DNA from: a virus
Length of the DNA: 64,000 nucleotides
IMG/VR virus record: IMGVR_UViG_3300025413_001414
Location: 14,699 to 78,698 of that record
Direction: 5' to 3' (one strand)
The notes under the pieces are model-generated. The model saw only the letters and a program-made list of their open reading frames with translations. It had not been told where the DNA came from and searched no databases. A program made the translations under genes and the position numbers. Below, one piece after another: positions 18,612-40,013 of this stretch; the first letter of the stretch is position 1, and each line of letters opens with the position of its first letter.

Positions 18612-19745
18612 TTACTTGGTTGGTTTATTGATTCGTTTGATATTAACGAGAACATCTTTGAACGAAATCATAAACTTCTTAATCTTCGGATCTGACACGT
18701 CAGGAACGTTATCGAGAACGTGTAACAGATAAGCCGTCAATTCATCATCACCGACCCTCTTCAAGAACTTGGTAACATTGTCGATTTGTTTATCAGACAA
18801 TTTCTTGATATCGTACTCCTTCAATGATTGGATCAATTCAGAGTTTTTATCACGATTATACTTATCCAATTCTTTTACTACAGTGTCGTAACGGTCAATA
18901 ATATCTTGGATAGTGATATTAATCATTTCTTGACAATATTGTAAGAAACGTTGAGCGCCGTTACCAATGTAAGAGTGTGCGATGTTCTGTAGAACTGGCA
19001 AGAATGCCTTTGGAGACGAATCTTTACCGAAATTGTTACAAATAAAGTCACTCAAGAATGTCCAAGAACGAGGCGTTGCGTAAGCCTTAGTACTTTCAGT
19101 TGGGGCTTGATACAACTTTTCAGGGTAGTTCTTGATGTAGGAAACTACAATCGGGTGAACTTTATCCTTAGCGAAGTTATCAATCCATTCATCAGCACCT
19201 AAAGTATGTGAATAGTGAATCAAACGGTTATTAAGAGCGTTGTCGAATTCTTCAACATCAGTACCATCTTCATCACCAAGGTTACCACTGGACATCATCA
19301 ATACGGTATCATTGAATTTGAACTCAGTACCGATTTGACGTTCAAGAAGAATTTGAAGAGCCGCGTTACGAACTGGTAGAGAAGCACGATTCAATTCTTC
19401 AAAGTGAATAATCGTAGGTTGTTTGTTAGCCTCAATAGCCCAACGAGGAACTACGAAGTCAAGACATTTAACACCCGAAACATCACTGACACTAGGATAA
19501 AGACCTACGTCGGTTTCGTCAACCATTGAAAGTCGAATATCCATATATCTAAATCCTATTTTTTCAGCAATTGAACGTGAAATTGCTGATTTTGCAATAC
19601 CAGGTTTAGAAGTAATGTAAAGAACACCGGATTTAGGCCACATTACCATGAAGTAAAGACGTTCACGTTCAGTAAGAGCGTTCATCTTGGCCATAAATTC
19701 TTGTGGTAGACCTGCTTTTGTATCTTTGTTTTCTGCCATAATCAT
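18612..19745 (-). CDS. MoxR-like AAA+ ATPase
   Basis: SKPGIAKS Walker A, IIHFEELNRA, NAALQILLER, ATPRSW. Confidence 0.85.
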   Translation of the reverse strand: MIMAENKDTKAGLPQEFMAKMNALTERERLYFMVMWPKSGVLYITSKPGIAKSAISRSIAEKIGFRYMDIRLSMVDETDVGLYPSVSDVSGVKCLDFVVPRWAIEANKQPTIIHFEELNRASLPVRNAALQILLERQIGTEFKFNDTVLMMSSGNLGDEDGTDVEEFDNALNNRLIHYSHTLGADEWIDNFAKDKVHPIVVSYIKNYPEKLYQAPTESTKAYATPRSWTFLSDFICNNFGKDSSPKAFLPVLQNIAHSYIGNGAQRFLQYCQEMINITIQDIIDRYDTVVKELDKYNRDKNSELIQSLKEYDIKKLSDKQIDNVTKFLKRVGDDELTAYLLHVLDNVPDVSDPKIKKFMISFKDVLVNIKRINKPTK

Positions 19746-19759
19746 TTGTTTTATTTATA

Positions 19760-19916
19760 CAAATTTACGAATTGTTTTTGAATTAAAAAAATTTATTTTT
19801 ACAATCACATATTCTCTGTAAGAGTTTATTTATACAAATATACGATATATTTCTTAATTACCAAAACTTATTTTTTATAACCAATTCATATTGTTCGTAT
19901 ATATCACACAAATGTA
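19760..19916 (-). promoter_or_regulatory. Three tandem Bacteroidota-type promoters
   Basis: TAnnTTTG at 19760-67, 19835-42, 19909-16, ~75-bp period. Confidence 0.7.
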
Positions 19917-20014
19917 AATCAAATTTCTAAATCCACAAAAAATTTGTTTCCGATAAATAGTTCAACTATCAAAGGGAAGGGAGGGTATTTAATATATAAG
20001 TAGAAATTAATTTT

Positions 20015-21742
20015 ATGCAAAACTATACATTTTTATATAATGATACAAAGTTAGACAAAAACAAACTAAAAGAGGATTGGATTAAGAAAAATGTCCCATC
20101 TTTATACAAAGATGTTATATCATTCTCAAACATGATAAACTTTGAGTATTCCAAATTTTCACAATTATTATATCATTATAAAATAAATAAGACTGAATTG
20201 CCAATATGTGACTATTGCAAAAAAGAAAATAAAAGATTTATTGGATTTGATTATGGATATAAACTAGGATGTAGTAGACATTGTGCAATTTTACTAACAA
20301 GACCAAAGTCAAATGAAACTAGGAGATTGAACACATTAGAAAAATATGGAGTTGAACACACCACCCAACTAAATTCAGTTAAAGAAAAAATAAAAAAAAC
20401 CAACATTAAAAAGTATGGAGTAGAACATGCTTCACAGAATGAAAATATTAAAAATTCAATTAAAAAAACAAACAATATACGATATGGTACTGATTTGCCT
20501 CTTCAAAATTTACAAATTAAGAATAAAATGATTGATAACTTTATAGAAAAGTATGGTGTCAGTAACCCAATTTTACTAGATTCAGTCAAAAATAAAATTA
20601 AAAAAAATAATTTGAAAAAATATGGATGTGAATGGCACATATCTTCTGATATTATCAAACAAAAAATAAAAAATTCACAATATCTTCATAATTATAAAAA
20701 TATTGTTTCTAATTATGGTAAAATCGATGGATTAAATATAATATCATATGAAAATAATATAGTAAAATTTTATTGTGAAAAGTGTAACAATGAGTTTGAA
20801 TCAAATTATGTACATCTTTATAATAGACATATCAGAGATAAATCTAATATTTGTACTATTTGCAATCCACTAAATAACAAAACATCTAATGGACAAAAAG
20901 AAATTATAAATTTTTTAAAGGAACTAAGAATAAATATTACAGTAAATGATAGAAAAATAATAAATCCATACGAAATAGACATTTATCTAAAAGATTATAA
21001 TTTAGGTATTGAGTTTAACGGCATATATTGGCACTCTGAAATAAACAAGGATAATGGCTACCATTATGATAAGTATAATAGATGCACACAAAAAGGTATT
21101 GGACTAATTCAAATTTGGGAAGATGATTGGACATATAAAAAGGATATAATAAAGTCAGTGATAAAAAGTAGGATAAATAAGAATTCATCAATTGGTGCTA
21201 GATTATGTATCATAAAAGTAGTTTCAAATGAAGATTCTAAAATTTTTCTAAATGAAAATCATATTCAGGGATGGTGTATTTCAAAATATAGATATGGATT
21301 ATATTTTGAAAATAATCTAGTTAGTATATTAACAATTTCAAATAGTAGAAAAAATATTACTAAAAATGCAAAAATCGGAGAATATGAAATAGTTAGATTT
21401 TGTAATAAAATTGGAACAAATATCATTGGATCTTTATCAAAACTTTGGAAGTTTTTTGTAAATGAAATAAATCCGGTAAGAGTTATTTCATATTGTGATA
21501 ATGATCTATTTAGTGGTAAATCCTATTATAAAATAGGTATGAAATTAGATAGTATGTCATTTAATTATTGGTGGTGTGATGGTGATAAAAGACAAAATAG
21601 ATGGAATTTCAGAAAAGATAAATTAATAAGTGAAGGATATGATAGAGAAAAAACTGAATCAGAAATAATGATAGAAAGAGGATGGTATAAATGTTATGGA
21701 TCTGGTAATAAAAAATTTATTTGGAATAAAGATAATATTTAA
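20015..21742 (+). mobile_element. Free-standing KYG-repeat / Vsr-like putative homing endonuclease
   Basis: EKYGVE repeats, EIDIYL..GIEFNGIYWHS, IWEDDW. Confidence 0.75.
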
Positions 21743-21747
21743 CATAA

Positions 21748-21778
21748 AAAAAAAGAATCCGATTGGATTCTTTTTTTT
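21748..21778. terminator. Bidirectional terminator
   Basis: A-tract GAATCC-GATT-GGATTC T-tract between convergent genes. Confidence 0.75.
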
Positions 21779-21798
21779 ATTTCTCCGAAATATTTTTA

Positions 21799-22434
21799 TT
21801 ATCCTTTAATAACTTCTACGTTTTTCACAGCGATTACAGGTTTAACTTCTTCTACAATATTGTAGATTTCCATATCAGCCTCTTGAGAGTAATCCTTCAG
21901 CTTATCGATTGTACCTTTAGCCACACTGAAAGAAACAACGGCTTTAACAATCTTTTCTTTATCATCTTCATCAATTTCATCACAAGCCTCAATCAATTGA
22001 GAAAGAATTTCACCATATTTATCAACCATTTCACTATCAAATGAGAAGCTCGTTTTTTCTTCAACAGCAGCTTCACCGAAGGTTTCAGTCAAATACTTAG
22101 CCCTATCTTCGTTGATAGAAATATACTTATCAGAAGGTACGAACATCATTTGAGCCGTATCCAAACCAGATTTAGCCTCCAACATGATAGAACCTGGATT
22201 TTTGCTGGTTTTATCATATACTTTAGACCACTCAACCTTACCAATTTCTTTTACTTCATCAGAAATCATATCAGCCTCGGCCTTATCACGCTTCATGTTA
22301 TCTTGAAGCTCTTGAAGCTTTTGAATTTTATCGAAGAAATCAGCATCTTTCACTTTAACACGAACTTTTTCATCTTTCGCTTTAGTTGTTTTAGCGGGAG
22401 CCGACTTTTTAGCTTTTGCAAATAAATTAGCCAT
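21799..22434 (-). CDS. Hypothetical early protein
   Basis: Higher-GC codon usage, own host-type promoter at 22472-79. Confidence 0.7.
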   Translation of the reverse strand: MANLFAKAKKSAPAKTTKAKDEKVRVKVKDADFFDKIQKLQELQDNMKRDKAEADMISDEVKEIGKVEWSKVYDKTSKNPGSIMLEAKSGLDTAQMMFVPSDKYISINEDRAKYLTETFGEAAVEEKTSFSFDSEMVDKYGEILSQLIEACDEIDEDDKEKIVKAVVSFSVAKGTIDKLKDYSQEADMEIYNIVEEVKPVIAVKNVEVIKG

Positions 22435-22513
22435 AATAATAAGTTTTAAGTTTTTTGATTGATTTGTTTCACAAAGATACGAACTTTTTCAGAAACCACC
22501 TAATTTTTTATTT

Positions 22514-22733
22514 AGAAATGACATGCTAAATACACCATACCCTTCATTTCTCTCGTTCTTTGTTACACAAAGATACGACAAATTTCCGAAACCACCAAAT
22601 AAAAATTCCCCTCGTATAGAGAGGAATTCTTATACCAAAACAAACAGTTATGAGACTAAAGTGACGTGCCAGATACACTATACCTTTCACTTTGTAAATG
22701 ACGTGCCAGATACACTATACCTTTCATTTACAA
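22514..22733 (-). ncRNA. Small RNA(s) built from three copies of a conserved hairpin
   Basis: 28-bp core repeat at 22662-89 and 22699-726 (identical) and 22519-46 (23/28); covarying closing stems; promoters at 22736 and 22568; terminator 22601-30. Confidence 0.6.
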
Positions 22734-22774
22734 TACAAAGATACAGCAAGATTTTGTAACCACCAAATTTATTT

Positions 22775-23410
22775 TTATTCAAACCAAGTCACTTTTCCAG
22801 TAAGAATATCATATACAGATCCAACTACTCTTACTTGATTTGTATTTACAAGATTATTAATAACTGGTTTAGAATTTTTGAGACTATCTACATTTGAAGT
22901 TACATTACATTTGATTGCTTCATAAATAAAATTACTATCAGTCTTTTTAACTTTCTTAGTAGATTGTTGAATTTTCTCAATAAGAACTTGAATATGATTG
23001 TCAAACTTACTATTTGAGTTGACCGCTGCAGTAACCGCACCACAACTAGTATGGCCCATTATAACAATTAGATTAGTATGTAGATTCAAAATAGCATACT
23101 CTATACTTGATAAGTTATCATCATTTATAACATTGCCAGCAACTCTAATTACAAAAAGTTCTCCAAGACCTTTATTAAATATTATTTCTGGAGAAACTCT
23201 TGAGTCAGCGCAAGTAATAATAACAGCTTTAGGATTTTGACCTTTAGATAAAAAAAGTCTGGTTAACGAATCTCGATTTTTACTGCTAAATAATCCAGAA
23301 GTATATTCATTATTTCCAGATTTTAACCAAGTTAGAAGTGAATCATTTTTAGATTGTGAGAAACTTAAATTACTAATTAAAAGTAATAAAATAAGGATAA
23401 AATTTTTCAT
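22775..23410 (-). CDS. Beta-class carbonic anhydrase with signal peptide
   Basis: CADSRV, RVAGN, GHTSCGAV. Confidence 0.92.
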   Translation of the reverse strand: MKNFILILLLLISNLSFSQSKNDSLLTWLKSGNNEYTSGLFSSKNRDSLTRLFLSKGQNPKAVIITCADSRVSPEIIFNKGLGELFVIRVAGNVINDDNLSSIEYAILNLHTNLIVIMGHTSCGAVTAAVNSNSKFDNHIQVLIEKIQQSTKKVKKTDSNFIYEAIKCNVTSNVDSLKNSKPVINNLVNTNQVRVVGSVYDILTGKVTWFE

Positions 23411-23411
23411 T

Positions 23412-23606
23412 TTATTTTTTTATATCTTTCGTAAATAAATTTGTTGAGAATTCAAAAAAAGATATAATATGTTCATTAACCTTGTGTTTATTTACCTTAC
23501 CACAGTTAGTACATTTTGATTCCTTTTCCTTTTCTTTAGAAGTATAATTGATTGTGTATTTATGATTGCACCCTTTACAAAGTACAAATTTATCTTTGAC
23601 TTTCAT
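23412..23606 (-). CDS. Small Zn-ribbon protein
   Basis: CKGC...CTNC. Confidence 0.5.
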   Translation of the reverse strand: MKVKDKFVLCKGCNHKYTINYTSKEKEKESKCTNCGKVNKHKVNEHIISFFEFSTNLFTKDIKK

Positions 23607-24593: not shown

Positions 24594-24770
24594 ATGGAAA
24601 CATATTCATTTTTTTACAACGGCAAATGGTATCAAGTTGGTGACTTTATCAGAATGGGTTTATTTAGAAGTGCTTGGGAAATAATACACATAATTGACGG
24701 TGGATCCACTGTAATAACAAGAAACGGAAAATATAAAAAAATAGAAGGTAAGGTTAGAATATCAGATTAA
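24594..24770 (+). CDS. Small hypothetical protein (58 aa)
   Basis: METYSFFYNGKWYQVGDFIRMG..., below ORF-track cutoff. Confidence 0.45.
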   Translation: METYSFFYNGKWYQVGDFIRMGLFRSAWEIIHIIDGGSTVITRNGKYKKIEGKVRISD

Positions 24771-25358
24771 ATAATATTGCTTATTTTCTTTGTTATATCC
24801 AACGACTCCACTTTTGTATAGTTCAAAAATAATTTTTTCAGCTTTTGCGTGGCAGTTATTATGTTCTTGCACTGTACATATATCCAAATTTAATAAATTA
24901 TTATTTGATTTATCTCCATCTATATGATGAACAACTTCCCCCTTTTCAAGTGGTCTTCCAATTTTCTCTTGCATTAAAAAGATATGCTCTCTTATTCTTC
25001 CTCCATATACAGAAGAAGTTGATTTATTCAAATATTTATAATCTGATCCTACATATATACAAACATATCCATTACTATCAATAATTTTTGATCCAATGAG
25101 ATGATCATGCTTATTTGGATTCTTTTTATTATAAGATTTGGTAGCTAAACTAAAAACATTTCCGCAATTTCCACAAAAATGCTCGTAATTATTATTAGCT
25201 CTTTTTGGTGAAAAATTATCAGATGTTCTTTCAAATAGAGAATAACAATTATCACATTTTAATTTATATGTTTTCCTTTTTCTTTTCTTTTTAAATAATT
25301 TACCAGCAATTGATTTAAATTCAAATTCGGATTCTATATAATATATATCTATTATCAT
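24762..25358 (-). mobile_element. HNH homing endonuclease
   Basis: REH...VVHHIDGDKSNN..NL...EHNNCH. Confidence 0.85.
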
Positions 25359-30577: not shown

Positions 30578-30772
30578 AACAACAGCCCCGTTACGGTAGT
30601 AATCAGAGGTCCGGTCTTGTCGAAAGATAATTAGTCTTCCCCAGGTTAACCTGACTAAATCTGTTTAGACATCAGTGTAACGACTGACCAAAGTGAGTTT
30701 CACTACCTACAAAGCTTTAAAACGGAGTATGAATCCCGTTGCATCATTGTTGTCCTACAGATAACTGTTGTT
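30578..30772 (-). ncRNA. Unassigned ~195-nt structured RNA
   Basis: GC-elevated intergenic stretch, closing stem AACAACAGUU/GGCUGUUGUU, multiple hairpins, promoter TATATTTG at 30777-84. Confidence 0.65.
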
Positions 30773-30801
30773 ATCACAAATATACAAAATTAAATGAAAT
30801 A

Positions 30802-34345: not shown

Positions 34346-34705
34346 TCAAGCCCAGCCTGAATCCAACGTTTCATTTTCCACTACTGATTTAGCCGATATG
34401 AAATCATTATTTTTTAAATATGACTTGATTTTATCTAAATTTTGAGGAGTAATCCATTTTATAAATATTGTTGAATTACGATGTGAATTATAACGACTAC
34501 GAAGGTCGAAACTTGTAATTTTACTAATTAAATTTTCCAAGCCTTCGGTGGTTTCCCAATCACTACAAACATTATAACCCTCTAAACCTAAATCATCATA
34601 GATACCAAGAATTAATATGTAATTTTTATGAAATTCAACTTGCTCAGGGGTTCTTAATAGAACTGAAATTGAAATATCTCTCTTGATTGGAGTTAGTGTA
34701 TCCAT
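34346..34705 (-). CDS. Hypothetical, probably leaderless mRNA
   Basis: ATG immediately downstream of TATCTTTG (34710-17). Confidence 0.55.
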   Translation of the reverse strand: MDTLTPIKRDISISVLLRTPEQVEFHKNYILILGIYDDLGLEGYNVCSDWETTEGLENLISKITSFDLRSRYNSHRNSTIFIKWITPQNLDKIKSYLKNNDFISAKSVVENETLDSGWA

Positions 34706-34717
34706 CTCACAAAGATA

Positions 34718-35284
34718 CTAAACTTTTTTGAAACCACCAAATTCAATAATCCAGTAGTTCCAACCTATCATAATCATCGAGTGTATTGTTTCTGATATAG
34801 CCATACCATGAAAAAATTTAATAACTGATAGAGGTAATAACACCATCACTATTGAAAATATTAAATTAGTTTTCCAAACTCTTAATGGAATTTTGTTGTA
34901 GTTAAAATGTGCAAAAAGAAAAATAGCTAGTGGATATCCAAAAAAATAATACACAGCTAATATATTGTGTATGTAATATCTCATACTAAATAATCCAACT
35001 AAAAAAAGAGAAGCGTTGAGTGATATGAAAAATAAAATAATCAATTTTTTAAATACAAGATTATTAAAAGAATTTATATAAGTATAGACATTATACATCA
35101 TTGATATTGATAGTATAATAAGTGAAGCATTCCATATCCAAGGATGACTTGATTTTGTTCCCCAATATGAAAGTTGTATATCTGTAAATTTAAAATTAGC
35201 AGTAAAGAAAAAGTATAAAAATATAGCAAAGAATACCACAGTAGAAAATACTACTTGCAACATTCTAATTTTTTTGAGGTACAT
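34718..35284 (-). CDS. Multi-pass membrane protein (DUF998-like)
   Basis: 5-6 TM segments, LSYWG, H.ILA. Confidence 0.6.
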   Translation of the reverse strand: MYLKKIRMLQVVFSTVVFFAIFLYFFFTANFKFTDIQLSYWGTKSSHPWIWNASLIILSISMMYNVYTYINSFNNLVFKKLIILFFISLNASLFLVGLFSMRYYIHNILAVYYFFGYPLAIFLFAHFNYNKIPLRVWKTNLIFSIVMVLLPLSVIKFFHGMAISETIHSMIMIGWNYWIIEFGGFKKV

Positions 35285-39790: not shown

Positions 39791-40013
39791 ATAGTGACGA
39801 TTATACCCGCGGTTCTGTTTTATTCTATCATTTATCTCACCTTTCGGTGGCCTATTAAGGCTGCCTCAACCCGACTATCGTTGGGAAACCGACACCCTAA
39901 GTCTGTATGAGTTGCTACTTCTTTGGTCTAACGACTGATTAGGTCTTCCAAATTAGGTTTTGTAGCCGCGAAGTTCCTCTAGCATTTGCCAGCGATAGAT
40001 CATCCATCACTAT
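39791..40013 (-). ncRNA. rnpB: Minimised RNase P RNA
   Basis: P1 AUAGUGAUGGAU/AUCGUCACUAU; P2 UCUAUC/GAUAGA; P3 CUGGCA/UGCUAG; CR-I GAGGAACUUCGCGG pairing with CR-V ACAGAACCGCGGG (P4); CACC-GAAA-GGUG; AGAUAAAUG CR-IV-like. Confidence 0.8.

What the first reader, a model, noticed from the sequence alone, without database searches (positions are those of the whole stretch)
22514..22760. Promoter-to-terminator small RNA of tandem covarying hairpins (possible RNA decoy or antitoxin mimic)
Seen: a full host-type promoter (TTTG...TATCTTTG at 22736-43) fires into two identical 22-nt loops AAGGUAUAGUGUAUCUGGCACG with a 37-nt period. They are closed by different stems (UUGUAAAUGA/UCAUUUACAA and AAAGUGA/UCACUUU) and followed by a terminator hairpin with U-tract (22630-22597). 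A second promoter (22568-75) drives a third copy with five transitions, closed by AGAAAUGA/UCAUUUCU. The inner helix AGGUAU/GUAUCU is retained through G-U pairs, and GUG/CAY could form a pseudoknot; this folds only on the - strand. Inference: an early, multi-copy structured RNA that titrates a protein. The size and pseudoknot potential recall type III toxin-antitoxin (ToxI-like) repeats that phages are known to mimic. An RNA anti-CRISPR or other sponge is an alternative.
Basis: partly seen in the sequence, partly recalled or inferred. Interest (0 to 1): 0.8.

Follow-up and report, generated by a model that had tools for sequence, protein, structure and literature searches.

The report
Early hairpin small-RNA cassette, new loop variant
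A very large lake phage of Bacteroidota carries, in front of a conserved early gene, three copies of a small RNA hairpin with one shared 22-base loop; it sits on the same promoter-and-stem scaffold as a widespread hairpin family of phages that matches no Rfam family, and its job is still unknown.

Summary
On the minus strand, three promoters of the Bacteroidota type lie within 300 bases. P1 fires into two abutting hairpins with identical 22-nt loops, then a strong terminator. P2 fires into a third copy that differs by five transitions. P3 drives a conserved 211-aa gene of huge phages (P0001). The stems differ between copies but stay paired, with three pairs changed on both sides. A 15-nt self-complementary core of the loop pairs only on the minus strand, through G-U pairs.

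No Rfam family matches. The motif was found in no other viral, metagenome or bacterial contig except an identical Trout Bog Lake contig.

New here: related phages keep tandem promoters at this site. Two of them carry a hairpin with the loop AACGAUUYAGAUACAA. That loop defines a widespread family, also absent from Rfam, in more than 120 viral contigs, with freely covarying stems. The window's first hairpin shares its promoter, start-site spacing, 5' arm and loop start with that family but has a different loop.

Best reading: an early hairpin small-RNA and leader cassette whose loop is a docking tag. Its function is unknown. Earlier notes of this scan describe similar cassettes on other DNA.

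The parts
22736..22767 (-). Promoter P1 of the Bacteroidota sigma-A type: TTTG, 20 nt, TATCTTTG. The predicted start site is about 22731, the first paired base of hairpin A.
   Evidence: The TAnnTTTG box lies at -12 to -5 in Flavobacterium (PMC9723704), which places +1 five bases after the G at 22736. The start site is inferred, not measured.
22692..22733 (-). Hairpin A: 10-bp stem (8 bp if transcription starts at 22731) and a 22-nt loop AAGGUAUAGUGUAUCUGGCACG (22723-22702).
   Evidence: inverted repeat I3, 100% complementary; -10.6 kcal/mol, z -2.6.
22658..22693 (-). Hairpin B: 7-bp stem and the identical 22-nt loop (22686-22665). Its 5' arm overlaps the 3' arm of A by 2 nt. The fourth pair is G-C where A has A-U.
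   Evidence: (family D2).
22596..22633 (-). Intrinsic terminator: 15-bp stem, 5-nt loop and a U-tract. The U-tract runs into the -33 TTTG of P2, making a composite terminator-promoter.
   Evidence: -17.6 kcal/mol, z -4.3. (the only terminator-like site in 21600-23000; 0.4 expected).
22568..22599 (-). Promoter P2, 31 of 44 positions identical to P1. The predicted start site is about 22563.
   Evidence: (family D1). It is homologous to the upstream promoter of related phages (alignment A3).
22514..22551 (-). Hairpin C: 8-bp stem and a loop AGGGUAUGGUGUAUUUAGCAUG (22543-22522), five transitions away from A and B. It lies at about +13 of the P2 leader of the P0001 mRNA, and no terminator follows it.
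   Evidence: (-8.8 kcal/mol, z -2.9).
22472..22503 (-). Promoter P3, the gene-proximal promoter. The predicted start site is about 22467, giving a 33-nt leader.
21799..22434 (-). Gene P0001, 211 aa. It belongs to a conserved family of huge Bacteroidota phages of unknown function and lies downstream of the cassette.
   Evidence: 1447 homologues, on contigs up to 770 kb, no Pfam domain. No recognisable fold and no profile match to solved structures.

Best explanation
This is a strand-specific structured-RNA cassette transcribed by the host RNA polymerase from stacked early promoters.

P1 makes an RNA of about 135 nt. It begins with hairpin A at its very 5' end, continues into hairpin B and stops at the intrinsic terminator. 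P2 makes a long-leader form of the P0001 mRNA that carries hairpin C. P3 makes the short-leader form.

The three hairpins share a 22-nt loop on stems that need only pair. That is the signature of a loop read in a sequence-specific way by a trans-acting factor, a protein or another RNA, with the stem only presenting it. I therefore read the loop as a docking tag placed on early transcripts.

The free P1 RNA offers two tags and the P0001 leader offers one. The same factor would thus be recruited to, or shared between, the small RNA and the mRNA. It could control the stability or translation of the mRNA, or act on the polymerase at the adjacent terminator.

The cassette is a loop variant of a widespread phage hairpin small-RNA scaffold, absent from Rfam, whose common loop is AACGAUUYAGAUACAA.

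Shown: the sequence anatomy, the pairing pattern, the homology of the scaffold, and the absence from Rfam and from other contigs.
Inferred: transcription, the start sites, early timing, the existence of a binding factor, and any effect on P0001.

My odds: about 0.6 that it is a functional RNA at all, and about 0.35 for the docking-tag mechanism acting in cis on early transcripts.
For: 1. Pairing is kept by changes on both sides. A and B differ at only 2 of 34 core positions, and those two are partners (A-U to G-C). The outer pairs of A, B and C are built from unrelated letters. My own estimate: two random changes falling on one pair and keeping it paired has a probability of about 0.004-0.01.

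2. Strand specificity. The 15-mer AGGUAUAGUGUAUCU is self-complementary at 7 of 7 pairs on the minus strand in both loop versions. On the plus strand it is 5 of 7 and 2 of 7. The minus strand is the one that carries the promoters, the terminator and both flanking genes.

3. Selection rather than recent copying. From the P1 and P2 sequences printed I count 7 differences in 13 unconstrained spacer positions. The hairpin cores of the same two units differ at 5 of 34 positions, all transitions.

4. Small-RNA gene anatomy. A consensus promoter is followed by the only terminator-like site in the region.

5. The slot is a cassette site. Relatives keep two or three stacked promoters in front of the P0001 homologue. 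Between them lie short spacers, about half with a hairpin, or small ORFs.

6. Scaffold homology. Window: GTATCTTTG-TA-TTGTAAATGA-AAGG. Family hairpin 1: GTATCTTTG-TA-TTGTAATTAAA-GGA (L259) and TTATCTTTG-TA-TTGTTGATGA-AGGC (L169).

7. The family itself. It gave 144 instances in the first 120 viral stretches, 107 of them unique. Of these, 85 are closed by 5 or more base pairs, with 69 distinct 5' arms. It often occurs as 2-4 tandem copies, and the second hairpin often ends in a T-run. On 27 members, 8 of 8 stem pairs change on both sides and 92% of cells are paired, against 37-52% when slid.
Against: - There are no expression data.
- Outside the window only an identical contig carries the motif. 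The case therefore rests on three copies.
- The single hairpins are only moderately stable (-8 to -11 kcal/mol). The inner fold is not the same in the three predictions.
- A and B together fold better as one long loop-to-loop duplex (-20.8 kcal/mol), so the two-hairpin picture is not the only one.
- No candidate binding protein was identified.
- The family model R2 does not hit the window hairpins. Kinship rests on the promoter, the 5' arm and the loop start only.
- The 27-member family alignment was selected for stems of 5 bp or more and for an exact loop core. This inflates its pairing figures and makes the invariant loop true by construction.
Confidence: 0.5

Rival explanations
1. It is a by-product of promoter-cassette shuffling. 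The stacked promoters recombine in the manner of PeSL cassettes of T4-type phages, and the hairpins are leftovers or simple 5'-end and terminator stabilisers. On this view the shared loop reflects recent copying or gene conversion, not a function of its own.
For: - The promoter is repeated three times at 62-83% identity.
- The terminator abuts P2 as in PeSLs.
- Relatives show insertions and deletions of small ORFs or unrelated spacers between the same promoters. About half of those spacers have no hairpin.
- The P1-A-B-terminator module is an addition found only in this lineage.
Against: - The cores are far better kept than the promoter spacers of the same units (and my count from its printout).
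- The stems differ while the loops are identical, the reverse of what plain duplication gives.
- The related family keeps one loop across more than 100 contigs on 69 different stems.
Confidence: 0.2
2. It is a trans-acting decoy or sponge RNA. The P1 RNA would soak up a host or defence protein by mimicking its natural RNA ligand, such as a type III antitoxin, a CRISPR repeat or another ligand.
For: - The unit runs from a promoter to a terminator and carries two identical exposed loops.
- It sits in a slot where accessory cassettes are exchanged.
- The loop differs between phage lineages, as expected for a host-specific target.
Against: - The loop pattern has no counterpart with hairpin context in 185,579 species genomes. 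The two hits lie in unstructured sequence, one of them in Bacillus. Only exact matches could be found.
- There is no ToxN/AbiQ/Cas hit near the element.
- Only two units are head to tail, and each has its own stem, unlike ToxI arrays.
- The third copy sits in an mRNA leader.
Confidence: 0.12
3. It is an antisense, kissing-loop regulator. The loops would pair with another RNA: the 5' end of the predicted leaderless mRNA of gene 34346-34705, or each other (loop A or B with loop C in the P0001 leader).
For: - Loops A and C both give an 11-nt run of Watson-Crick and G-U pairs with +2 to +12 of that mRNA. It comes from the only other promoter of the same extended type in the record. The three loop differences inside the run all keep pairing (the base-by-base reading is mine).
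- For this one target p is about 0.004-0.01.
- The loops are self-complementary.
Against: - The match is not significant once all gene starts are considered. The best energies lie inside the range of shuffled loops.
- The match was noticed after the fact.
- Gene 34346-34705 has no homologue in five relatives, so co-variation cannot be tested.
- Loop-to-gene-start pairing is not enriched in two related genomes.
Confidence: 0.1
4. It encodes mini-ORFs. Each copy starts with AUG or GUG inside the 5' arm and would give MKG(I/M)VYLA(R/C)H(L/F). The element would then be a leader peptide or micropeptide gene.
For: - Three of the five A-to-C differences are synonymous in this frame.
- The AUG of copy A lies 4 nt from the predicted start site.
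- The phage seems to use a leaderless start at 34705.
- Leaderless mRNAs exist in Flavobacterium, at 5.5%.
Against: - Three of five synonymous changes is not significant (p 0.21).
- The three ORFs end at 23, 48 and 11 codons. B reads through the terminator and P2.
- A reads copy B in another frame, because the period is 37 nt.
- The start codon is buried in the stem.
- The ATG-to-GTG change in B is matched by CAT to CAC on the opposite arm, which serves pairing.
Confidence: 0.06
5. It is a DNA-level site: an operator for a dimeric regulator, or a single-stranded DNA hairpin used in replication or recombination.
For: - The inverted repeats AAATGA...TCATTT lie next to promoters.
- The outer stems fold on both strands.
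Against: - The distance from the promoter differs between copies: 2 nt for A against about 16 nt for C.
- The inner quasi-palindrome is good only with G-U pairs, on one strand, and decays as DNA in copy C to 2 of 7.
- A symmetric double change in both half-sites, as in B, fits base pairing better than protein contacts.
Confidence: 0.06

Closest known systems
AACGAUUYAGAUACAA-loop hairpin cassettes of phage contigs, probably of Bacteroidota
   Same: - The same host-type promoter, the same spacing to the start site, and a near-identical 5' arm and loop start.
- Two or more tandem hairpins that share one 20-22-nt loop on different stems.
- The unit ends at a terminator.
- In L004 and L045 it occupies the same slot upstream of the P0001 homologue.
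   Different: - The 16-18 nt loop core is a different sequence, and the family model R2 does not score the window hairpins.
- In the family the second hairpin is usually itself the GC-rich terminator. Here a separate third hairpin terminates.
HK022 put RNAs (putL, putR)
   Same: - Two stem-loops of about 70 nt in all, transcribed directly after an early promoter and placed ahead of terminators. The second site lies further from its own promoter (PMC9378689).
- Here hairpins A and B total 76 nt, start at about +1 of P1 and lie 24 nt before a terminator. Copy C lies after P2.
   Different: - The two put stems are unlike each other and carry bulges and a triplex. Here the two hairpins are near-identical repeats.
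- There is no sequence likeness.
- Read-through was not tested.
- No gene follows that depends on read-through, since P2 and P3 come after the terminator.
Lambdoid nut sites (boxB hairpin bound by N)
   Same: A promoter-proximal hairpin is repeated in two transcription units of one phage, with a conserved loop and a stem that need only pair. The loop identity differs between phage lineages (my own knowledge).
   Different: boxB is a 5-bp stem with a 5-nt loop and comes with boxA. No N-like protein or boxA was identified here, and the loops are 22 nt.
PeSL (promoter-early stem-loop) cassettes of T4-type phages
   Same: Repeated strong host-type early promoters are joined to a terminator stem-loop. 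They cluster where small accessory genes are swapped (PMC2839356). The terminator-P2 junction and the variable slot in relatives fit this.
   Different: PeSL stem-loops are the terminators themselves and carry no conserved large loop. Hairpins A-C are extra elements, with no U-tract and a conserved loop.
ToxI antitoxin RNA of type III toxin-antitoxin systems, and phage pseudo-ToxI
   Same: Short repeats with a period of about 36-37 nt, followed by a terminator and then a gene (my own knowledge).
   Different: - Only two units are contiguous.
- Each unit is a self-contained hairpin.
- The downstream protein is not ToxN-like.
- No host array with this sequence was found.
C4 antisense RNA of phages P1 and P7
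   Different: Only one weak candidate site was found here. There is no Rfam match.

Membership tests
Type III toxin-antitoxin antitoxin RNA (ToxI/CptI/TenpI) or phage mimic | Head-to-tail array of repeats of about 34-45 nt with no unrelated spacer | tested here: inconclusive
   Two units lie 37 nt apart. The third lies 143 nt further on, behind its own promoter.
Type III toxin-antitoxin antitoxin RNA (ToxI/CptI/TenpI) or phage mimic | An adjacent ToxN/AbiQ/CptN/TenpN endoribonuclease gene. A free phage mimic would not need one. | tested here: not met
   Pfam (eight nearby ORFs including P0001) names no ToxN- or AbiQ-type domain, and PADLOC (five ORFs) names nothing.
Type III toxin-antitoxin antitoxin RNA (ToxI/CptI/TenpI) or phage mimic | Sequence likeness to a host antitoxin array | tested here: inconclusive
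   An exact degenerate 20-mer scan of 185,579 species genomes gave 2 hits, both without any hairpin context. Diverged copies would be missed.
RNA anti-CRISPR (repeat mimic) | Likeness to a CRISPR repeat of the host | tested here: inconclusive
   The same scan found no repeated counterpart. The host is unknown.
   R2 scores L045 at 51.7 bits and L004 at 33.7 bits but gives no hit on window 22514-22733.
   Side-by-side comparison with 18 promoter-proximal members.
HK022 put-type antiterminator RNA | Two stem-loops directly after an early promoter and upstream of terminators | tested here: met
   compared with PMC9378689. This is architecture only.
HK022 put-type antiterminator RNA | Causes terminator read-through by binding RNA polymerase | not testable with these tools
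   This needs a reporter or in vitro transcription.
PeSL promoter-terminator cassette | A repeated early promoter joined to a terminator stem-loop, at sites of gene shuffling | tested here: met
   The terminator's U-tract runs into the -33 of P2. There are three promoter copies. Relatives carry ORFs or other spacers between the same promoters. This covers the promoter-terminator part, not hairpins A-C.
Any Rfam family | Match at or above the gathering score | tested here: not met
   No match in the whole window at gathering score. Only chance-level hits at E up to 10 in 21500-23500.

The most novel reading that the evidence does not exclude
The 20-22-nt loops are exchangeable specificity tags of a new class of early phage small RNAs. 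Each phage lineage would write one tag on all its copies: here AAGGUAUAGUGUAUCUGGCACG, and AACGAUUYAGAUACAA in more than 120 other contigs. The tag would be read by a matching host or phage factor. The two-tag RNA made in the first minutes of infection would capture or redirect that factor, for example a host RNA-binding or defence protein, or the transcription and termination machinery. The window would then be a natural tag-switch variant that could reveal the partner.
Probability: 0.15. Interest if true: 0.8.

Novelty: new variant of a known kind. Interest (0 to 1): 0.55.

Why it matters
Small RNAs of phages that infect Bacteroidota are almost unexplored, and this phylum lacks the usual RNA chaperones Hfq and ProQ (my own knowledge). 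If the reading holds, this locus and the much larger family it led to define a common, compact building plan. The plan is a host promoter, a hairpin at the very 5' end, a second hairpin with the same long loop, and a stop signal. It is carried by over a hundred uncultured phages and is missing from Rfam.

A lineage that kept the scaffold but changed the loop in all three copies offers a natural experiment. It can show what the loop recognises. It can also show whether the RNA acts on its neighbouring early gene, on the polymerase at the terminator, or on a host factor.

If the rival holds and it is only cassette debris, the locus still documents stacked-promoter shuffling like that of T4-type phages, now in huge Bacteroidota phages.

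Tried and rejected
- Rfam: no credible match in the region or the whole window, nor on three family loci. No tRNA or tmRNA.
- Exact-pattern scans for the loop. Viral contigs gave 4 hits, all the start of an unrelated capsid-like gene. The two half-patterns gave 37 and 24 stretches, none with the other half or a stem. Species genomes gave 2 hits without a hairpin.
- Model R1 of the three copies found only itself in 42 sources and in five whole related records. The weak extra hits lie in uninterrupted sequence with no promoter or hairpin context.
- Relatives of the virus record cannot be drawn.
The closest relatives (80-99% identical P0001, from ENA and Logan) could therefore not be read.
- P0001 function: Pfam, PHROGs, PADLOC and NCBIfam gave nothing. 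The AlphaFold model (pLDDT 80) had no named match by Foldseek or VIA-align; the best Z was 3.6. The PDB profile search was empty. The ESM Atlas gave only a weak 'gp33 family' lead at 0.92.
- Antisense targets: no site beyond the range of shuffled loops in the 78.7-kb record or at gene starts. The 28-nt linker also has no significant target.
- Sigma-54 promoter: copy A reads TGGCAC-N5-TTAC, but the -12 GC is missing and copies B and C do not fit. I rejected it from the sequence.
- Plus-strand 78-aa ORF at 22523-22759. It runs antisense across three promoters and the terminator and reads the repeats in different frames, so I judged it spurious.
- Constant neighbour gene for the family: none. P0001 lies next to it in only 1 of 120 loci, and the largest neighbour clusters hold 8-10 loci.
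- Literature: no paper holds the family loop sequence.

Full report
**Where the window lies.** The window is bases 14699-78698 of a 78.7-kb viral record that CheckV rates as 16% complete. It has 27% G+C and promoters of the Bacteroidota type. Its conserved genes have their nearest DNA matches in 635-kb and 642-kb uncultured phages. An identical contig comes from Trout Bog Lake. It is thus a fragment of a huge freshwater phage, probably of Bacteroidota.

**The observation.** Reading the minus strand gives the following order, after the stop codon of a beta-carbonic anhydrase gene (22775-23410; Pfam Pro_CA, E 2.6e-41):
- P1: TTTG, 20 nt, TATCTTTG (22767-22736).
- Hairpin A (22733-22692).
- Hairpin B (22693-22658).
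- A 24-nt linker.
- A 15-bp terminator hairpin with a U-tract (22633-22596).
- P2 (22599-22568).
- A 16-nt leader.
- Hairpin C (22551-22514).
- P3 (22503-22472).
- A 33-nt leader.
- The 211-aa gene P0001 (22434-21799).

The repeat finder reports both the promoter family and the 34-nt hairpin family. The loop 20-mer is far beyond chance. The record holds exactly three copies. The terminator is the only terminator-like site in 1.4 kb.

In Flavobacterium the TAnnTTTG box lies at -12 to -5 (PMC9723704). This puts the P1 start site at about 22731, the first paired base of hairpin A, and predicts an RNA of about 135 nt.

In the whole record the extended promoter TTTGGTGGTT...GTATCTTTG occurs only four times. 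Three of these are here.

**Is it RNA?** Four points favour RNA on the minus strand.
- A and B have identical loops and differ at two core positions only. Those two are partners, A-U against G-C.
- The outermost pairs of A, B and C are made of unrelated letters yet still pair. On the three copies, 3 of 8 outer pairs are changed on both sides, and 97.6% of cells pair against 27-55% when slid.
- The central 15-mer of the loop is self-complementary at 7 of 7 pairs if G-U is allowed. It stays so in copy C after three transitions. On the other strand this falls to 5 of 7 and 2 of 7.
- The two promoter units have diverged much more in their unconstrained spacers than in the hairpin cores (my count).

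There are limits. Only three sequences exist. The single hairpins are of moderate stability. The inner fold differs between predictions. A and B can also refold into one long loop-to-loop duplex.

**Alternatives at the same place.**
- Each copy carries AUG or GUG in its 5' arm and would encode MKG(I/M)VYLA(R/C)H. Three of five differences are synonymous, but that is not significant (p 0.21). The three frames end after 23, 48 and 11 codons, and one runs through the terminator and P2.
- A 78-codon frame on the opposite strand crosses all the signals and is taken as spurious.
- A sigma-54-like word in copy A is not kept in B or C.
- A DNA operator is unlikely. The spacing to the promoter differs between copies, and the palindrome decays as DNA.

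- No ToxN-, AbiQ- or Cas-like protein was named among the nearby ORFs scanned.
- P0001 has no recognisable family or fold.
- A scan of one genome for each of 185,579 prokaryote species with the degenerate loop pattern gave two hits without hairpin context.
- Scans of viral contigs with the whole or half pattern gave only chance hits.
- A covariance model of the three copies finds nothing else, even in whole related records.

The mimic ideas are therefore unsupported. They are not excluded, because only exact patterns could be searched in host genomes.

**The surroundings in relatives.** P0001 has more than 1,400 homologues on contigs up to 770 kb. In 37 viral and 12 metagenome loci the gene is preceded, more often than not, by two or three stacked promoters 45-130 nt apart.
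- Alignment with the nearest relatives shows that P2 and P3 are the ancestral pair. P1, hairpins A and B and the terminator are an added module.
- The spacers vary. Some are A-rich and unstructured. About half hold one hairpin with a large loop. Two hold a small ORF.
- This is the behaviour described for PeSL cassettes of T4-type phages (PMC2839356).

**A wider family.** Two relatives, L004 (LR745206) and L045, carry in this slot a hairpin with nearly the same loop (AACGATTYAGATACAA) on unrelated stems.
Many hold 2-4 copies 40-70 nt apart.
- Of 107 unique instances, 85 are closed by 5 or more base pairs, using 69 different 5' arms.
- On 27 members of one geometry, every stem pair changes on both sides and 92% of cells pair, against 37-52% when slid. 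These members were chosen for a stem and for the exact core, so the figures are inflated and the invariant loop is true by construction.
- In the tandem, promoter-proximal members a recurring unit is a host-type promoter, an AT-rich hairpin starting at the start site, a second and often GC-rich hairpin with the same loop, and a T-run. Across all 85 hairpins, 18 lie just after a -7 box and 13 are followed by a T-run.
- No Rfam family covers it. No paper in the library holds the sequence. It has no constant neighbour gene.

The window's P1 and hairpin A match these units letter for letter through the promoter, the TA, the 5' arm (TTGTAAATGA against TTGTAATTAAA, TTGTTGATGA and TGTTAATGA) and the loop start (AAGG against GGA and AGGC). 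The loop core then differs, and the family model does not score the window. I conclude that the window carries the same cassette scaffold with another loop, written on all three copies.

**Mechanism.** A fixed long loop on free stems, repeated within a genome and different between lineages, is what one expects of a tag read by a specific partner.

I tested the simplest partner, another phage RNA. One site stands out: +2 to +12 of the predicted leaderless mRNA of gene 34346-34705. That gene is driven by the only other promoter of the same type. The site pairs with loops A and C over 11 contiguous bases. This is not significant once all gene starts are counted. The gene has no homologue in five relatives. 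Two related genomes show no enrichment of loop-to-gene-start pairing. It stays a lead.

The architecture of P1 resembles putL of HK022: two stem-loops at the start site, about 70 nt, then a terminator (PMC9378689). It also resembles the repeated boxB of lambdoid nut sites. Neither can be tested here, and P2 and P3 make read-through unnecessary for P0001.

I therefore commit only to a loop-tag docking function on early transcripts. I put the odds at about 0.35 for that mechanism and about 0.6 that the RNA is functional at all. Shuffling debris (0.2), a decoy RNA (0.12), an antisense regulator (0.1), mini-ORFs (0.06) and a DNA site (0.06) are the rivals.

**Earlier notes of this scan.** A re-reading of the same stretch agrees with the observation. 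Notes on other genomes describe stacked promoter-to-terminator mini-units and same-loop hairpins in Bacteroidota phages. They suggested the loop-against-leader test, which I ran here with a negative result. These are unchecked notes and were used only as leads.

**Verdict.** The feature is real, and it is one loop variant of a phage hairpin cassette that matches no Rfam family. The specific mimicry readings are not supported, and the function remains open.

Noticed in passing
L146-L265 (IMG/VR); also L004:3644-3676 and L045:1374-1409: A widespread hairpin family with the loop AACGAUUYAGAUACAA on freely covarying stems. It often occurs as 2-4 tandem copies that form promoter-to-T-run units of about 110 nt. 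It is absent from Rfam, no paper in the library holds the sequence, and it has no constant neighbour gene.
   Followed up: partly
window 21799-22434 (-) and loci L010-L060: P0001 is a 211-aa protein with more than 1,400 homologues on huge-phage contigs. It has a basic N-terminal tail, one long helix and an alpha/beta domain, and no known family or fold. It is monocistronic and nearly always sits behind two or three stacked host-type promoters.
   Followed up: partly
window 34346-34741 (-): The fourth copy of the extended promoter lies inside the end of the upstream ORF. It places +1 on the A of the ATG of a 119-aa lineage-specific gene, which suggests a leaderless mRNA. Bases +2 to +12 are complementary to the hairpin loops over 11 nt including G-U pairs.
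   Followed up: partly
window 19835-19939 (-): A second stacked-promoter pair, with a 42-nt spacer and no hairpin, lies upstream of the AAA ATPase gene at 18612-19745.
   Followed up: no
window 22775-23410 (-): A phage-encoded beta-class carbonic anhydrase (Pfam Pro_CA, E 2.6e-41), an unusual auxiliary gene. P1 starts 8 nt after its stop codon, so its transcripts would also run through hairpins A and B to the terminator.
   Followed up: no
L005:3620-3745 (-), record LR756502: In the same slot this 642-kb phage has a promoter followed by an RNA of about 65 nt. The RNA is closed by AGUAGU/ACUACU and ends in a U-run that overlaps the next promoter's -33. This is another mini-unit with an unrelated sequence.
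   Followed up: no
window 1-64000; 30578-30784 and 39791-40013: Other first-stage notes propose a 195-nt structured RNA and a minimal RNase P RNA here. Rfam at gathering score finds nothing anywhere in the window, so neither matches a catalogued family at that threshold.
   Followed up: no
window 20015-21742 (+) and 24762-25358 (-): Homing and HNH endonuclease genes flank the region (PHROG 3339, E 1e-106; HNH_3). A bidirectional terminator at about 21746-21779 lies between the convergent genes.
   Followed up: no
L053:230-500 and L014:1090-1420: In these relatives the space between the two stacked promoters holds a small ORF of about 80-100 aa instead of a hairpin. The slot therefore accepts gene cassettes.
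   Followed up: no
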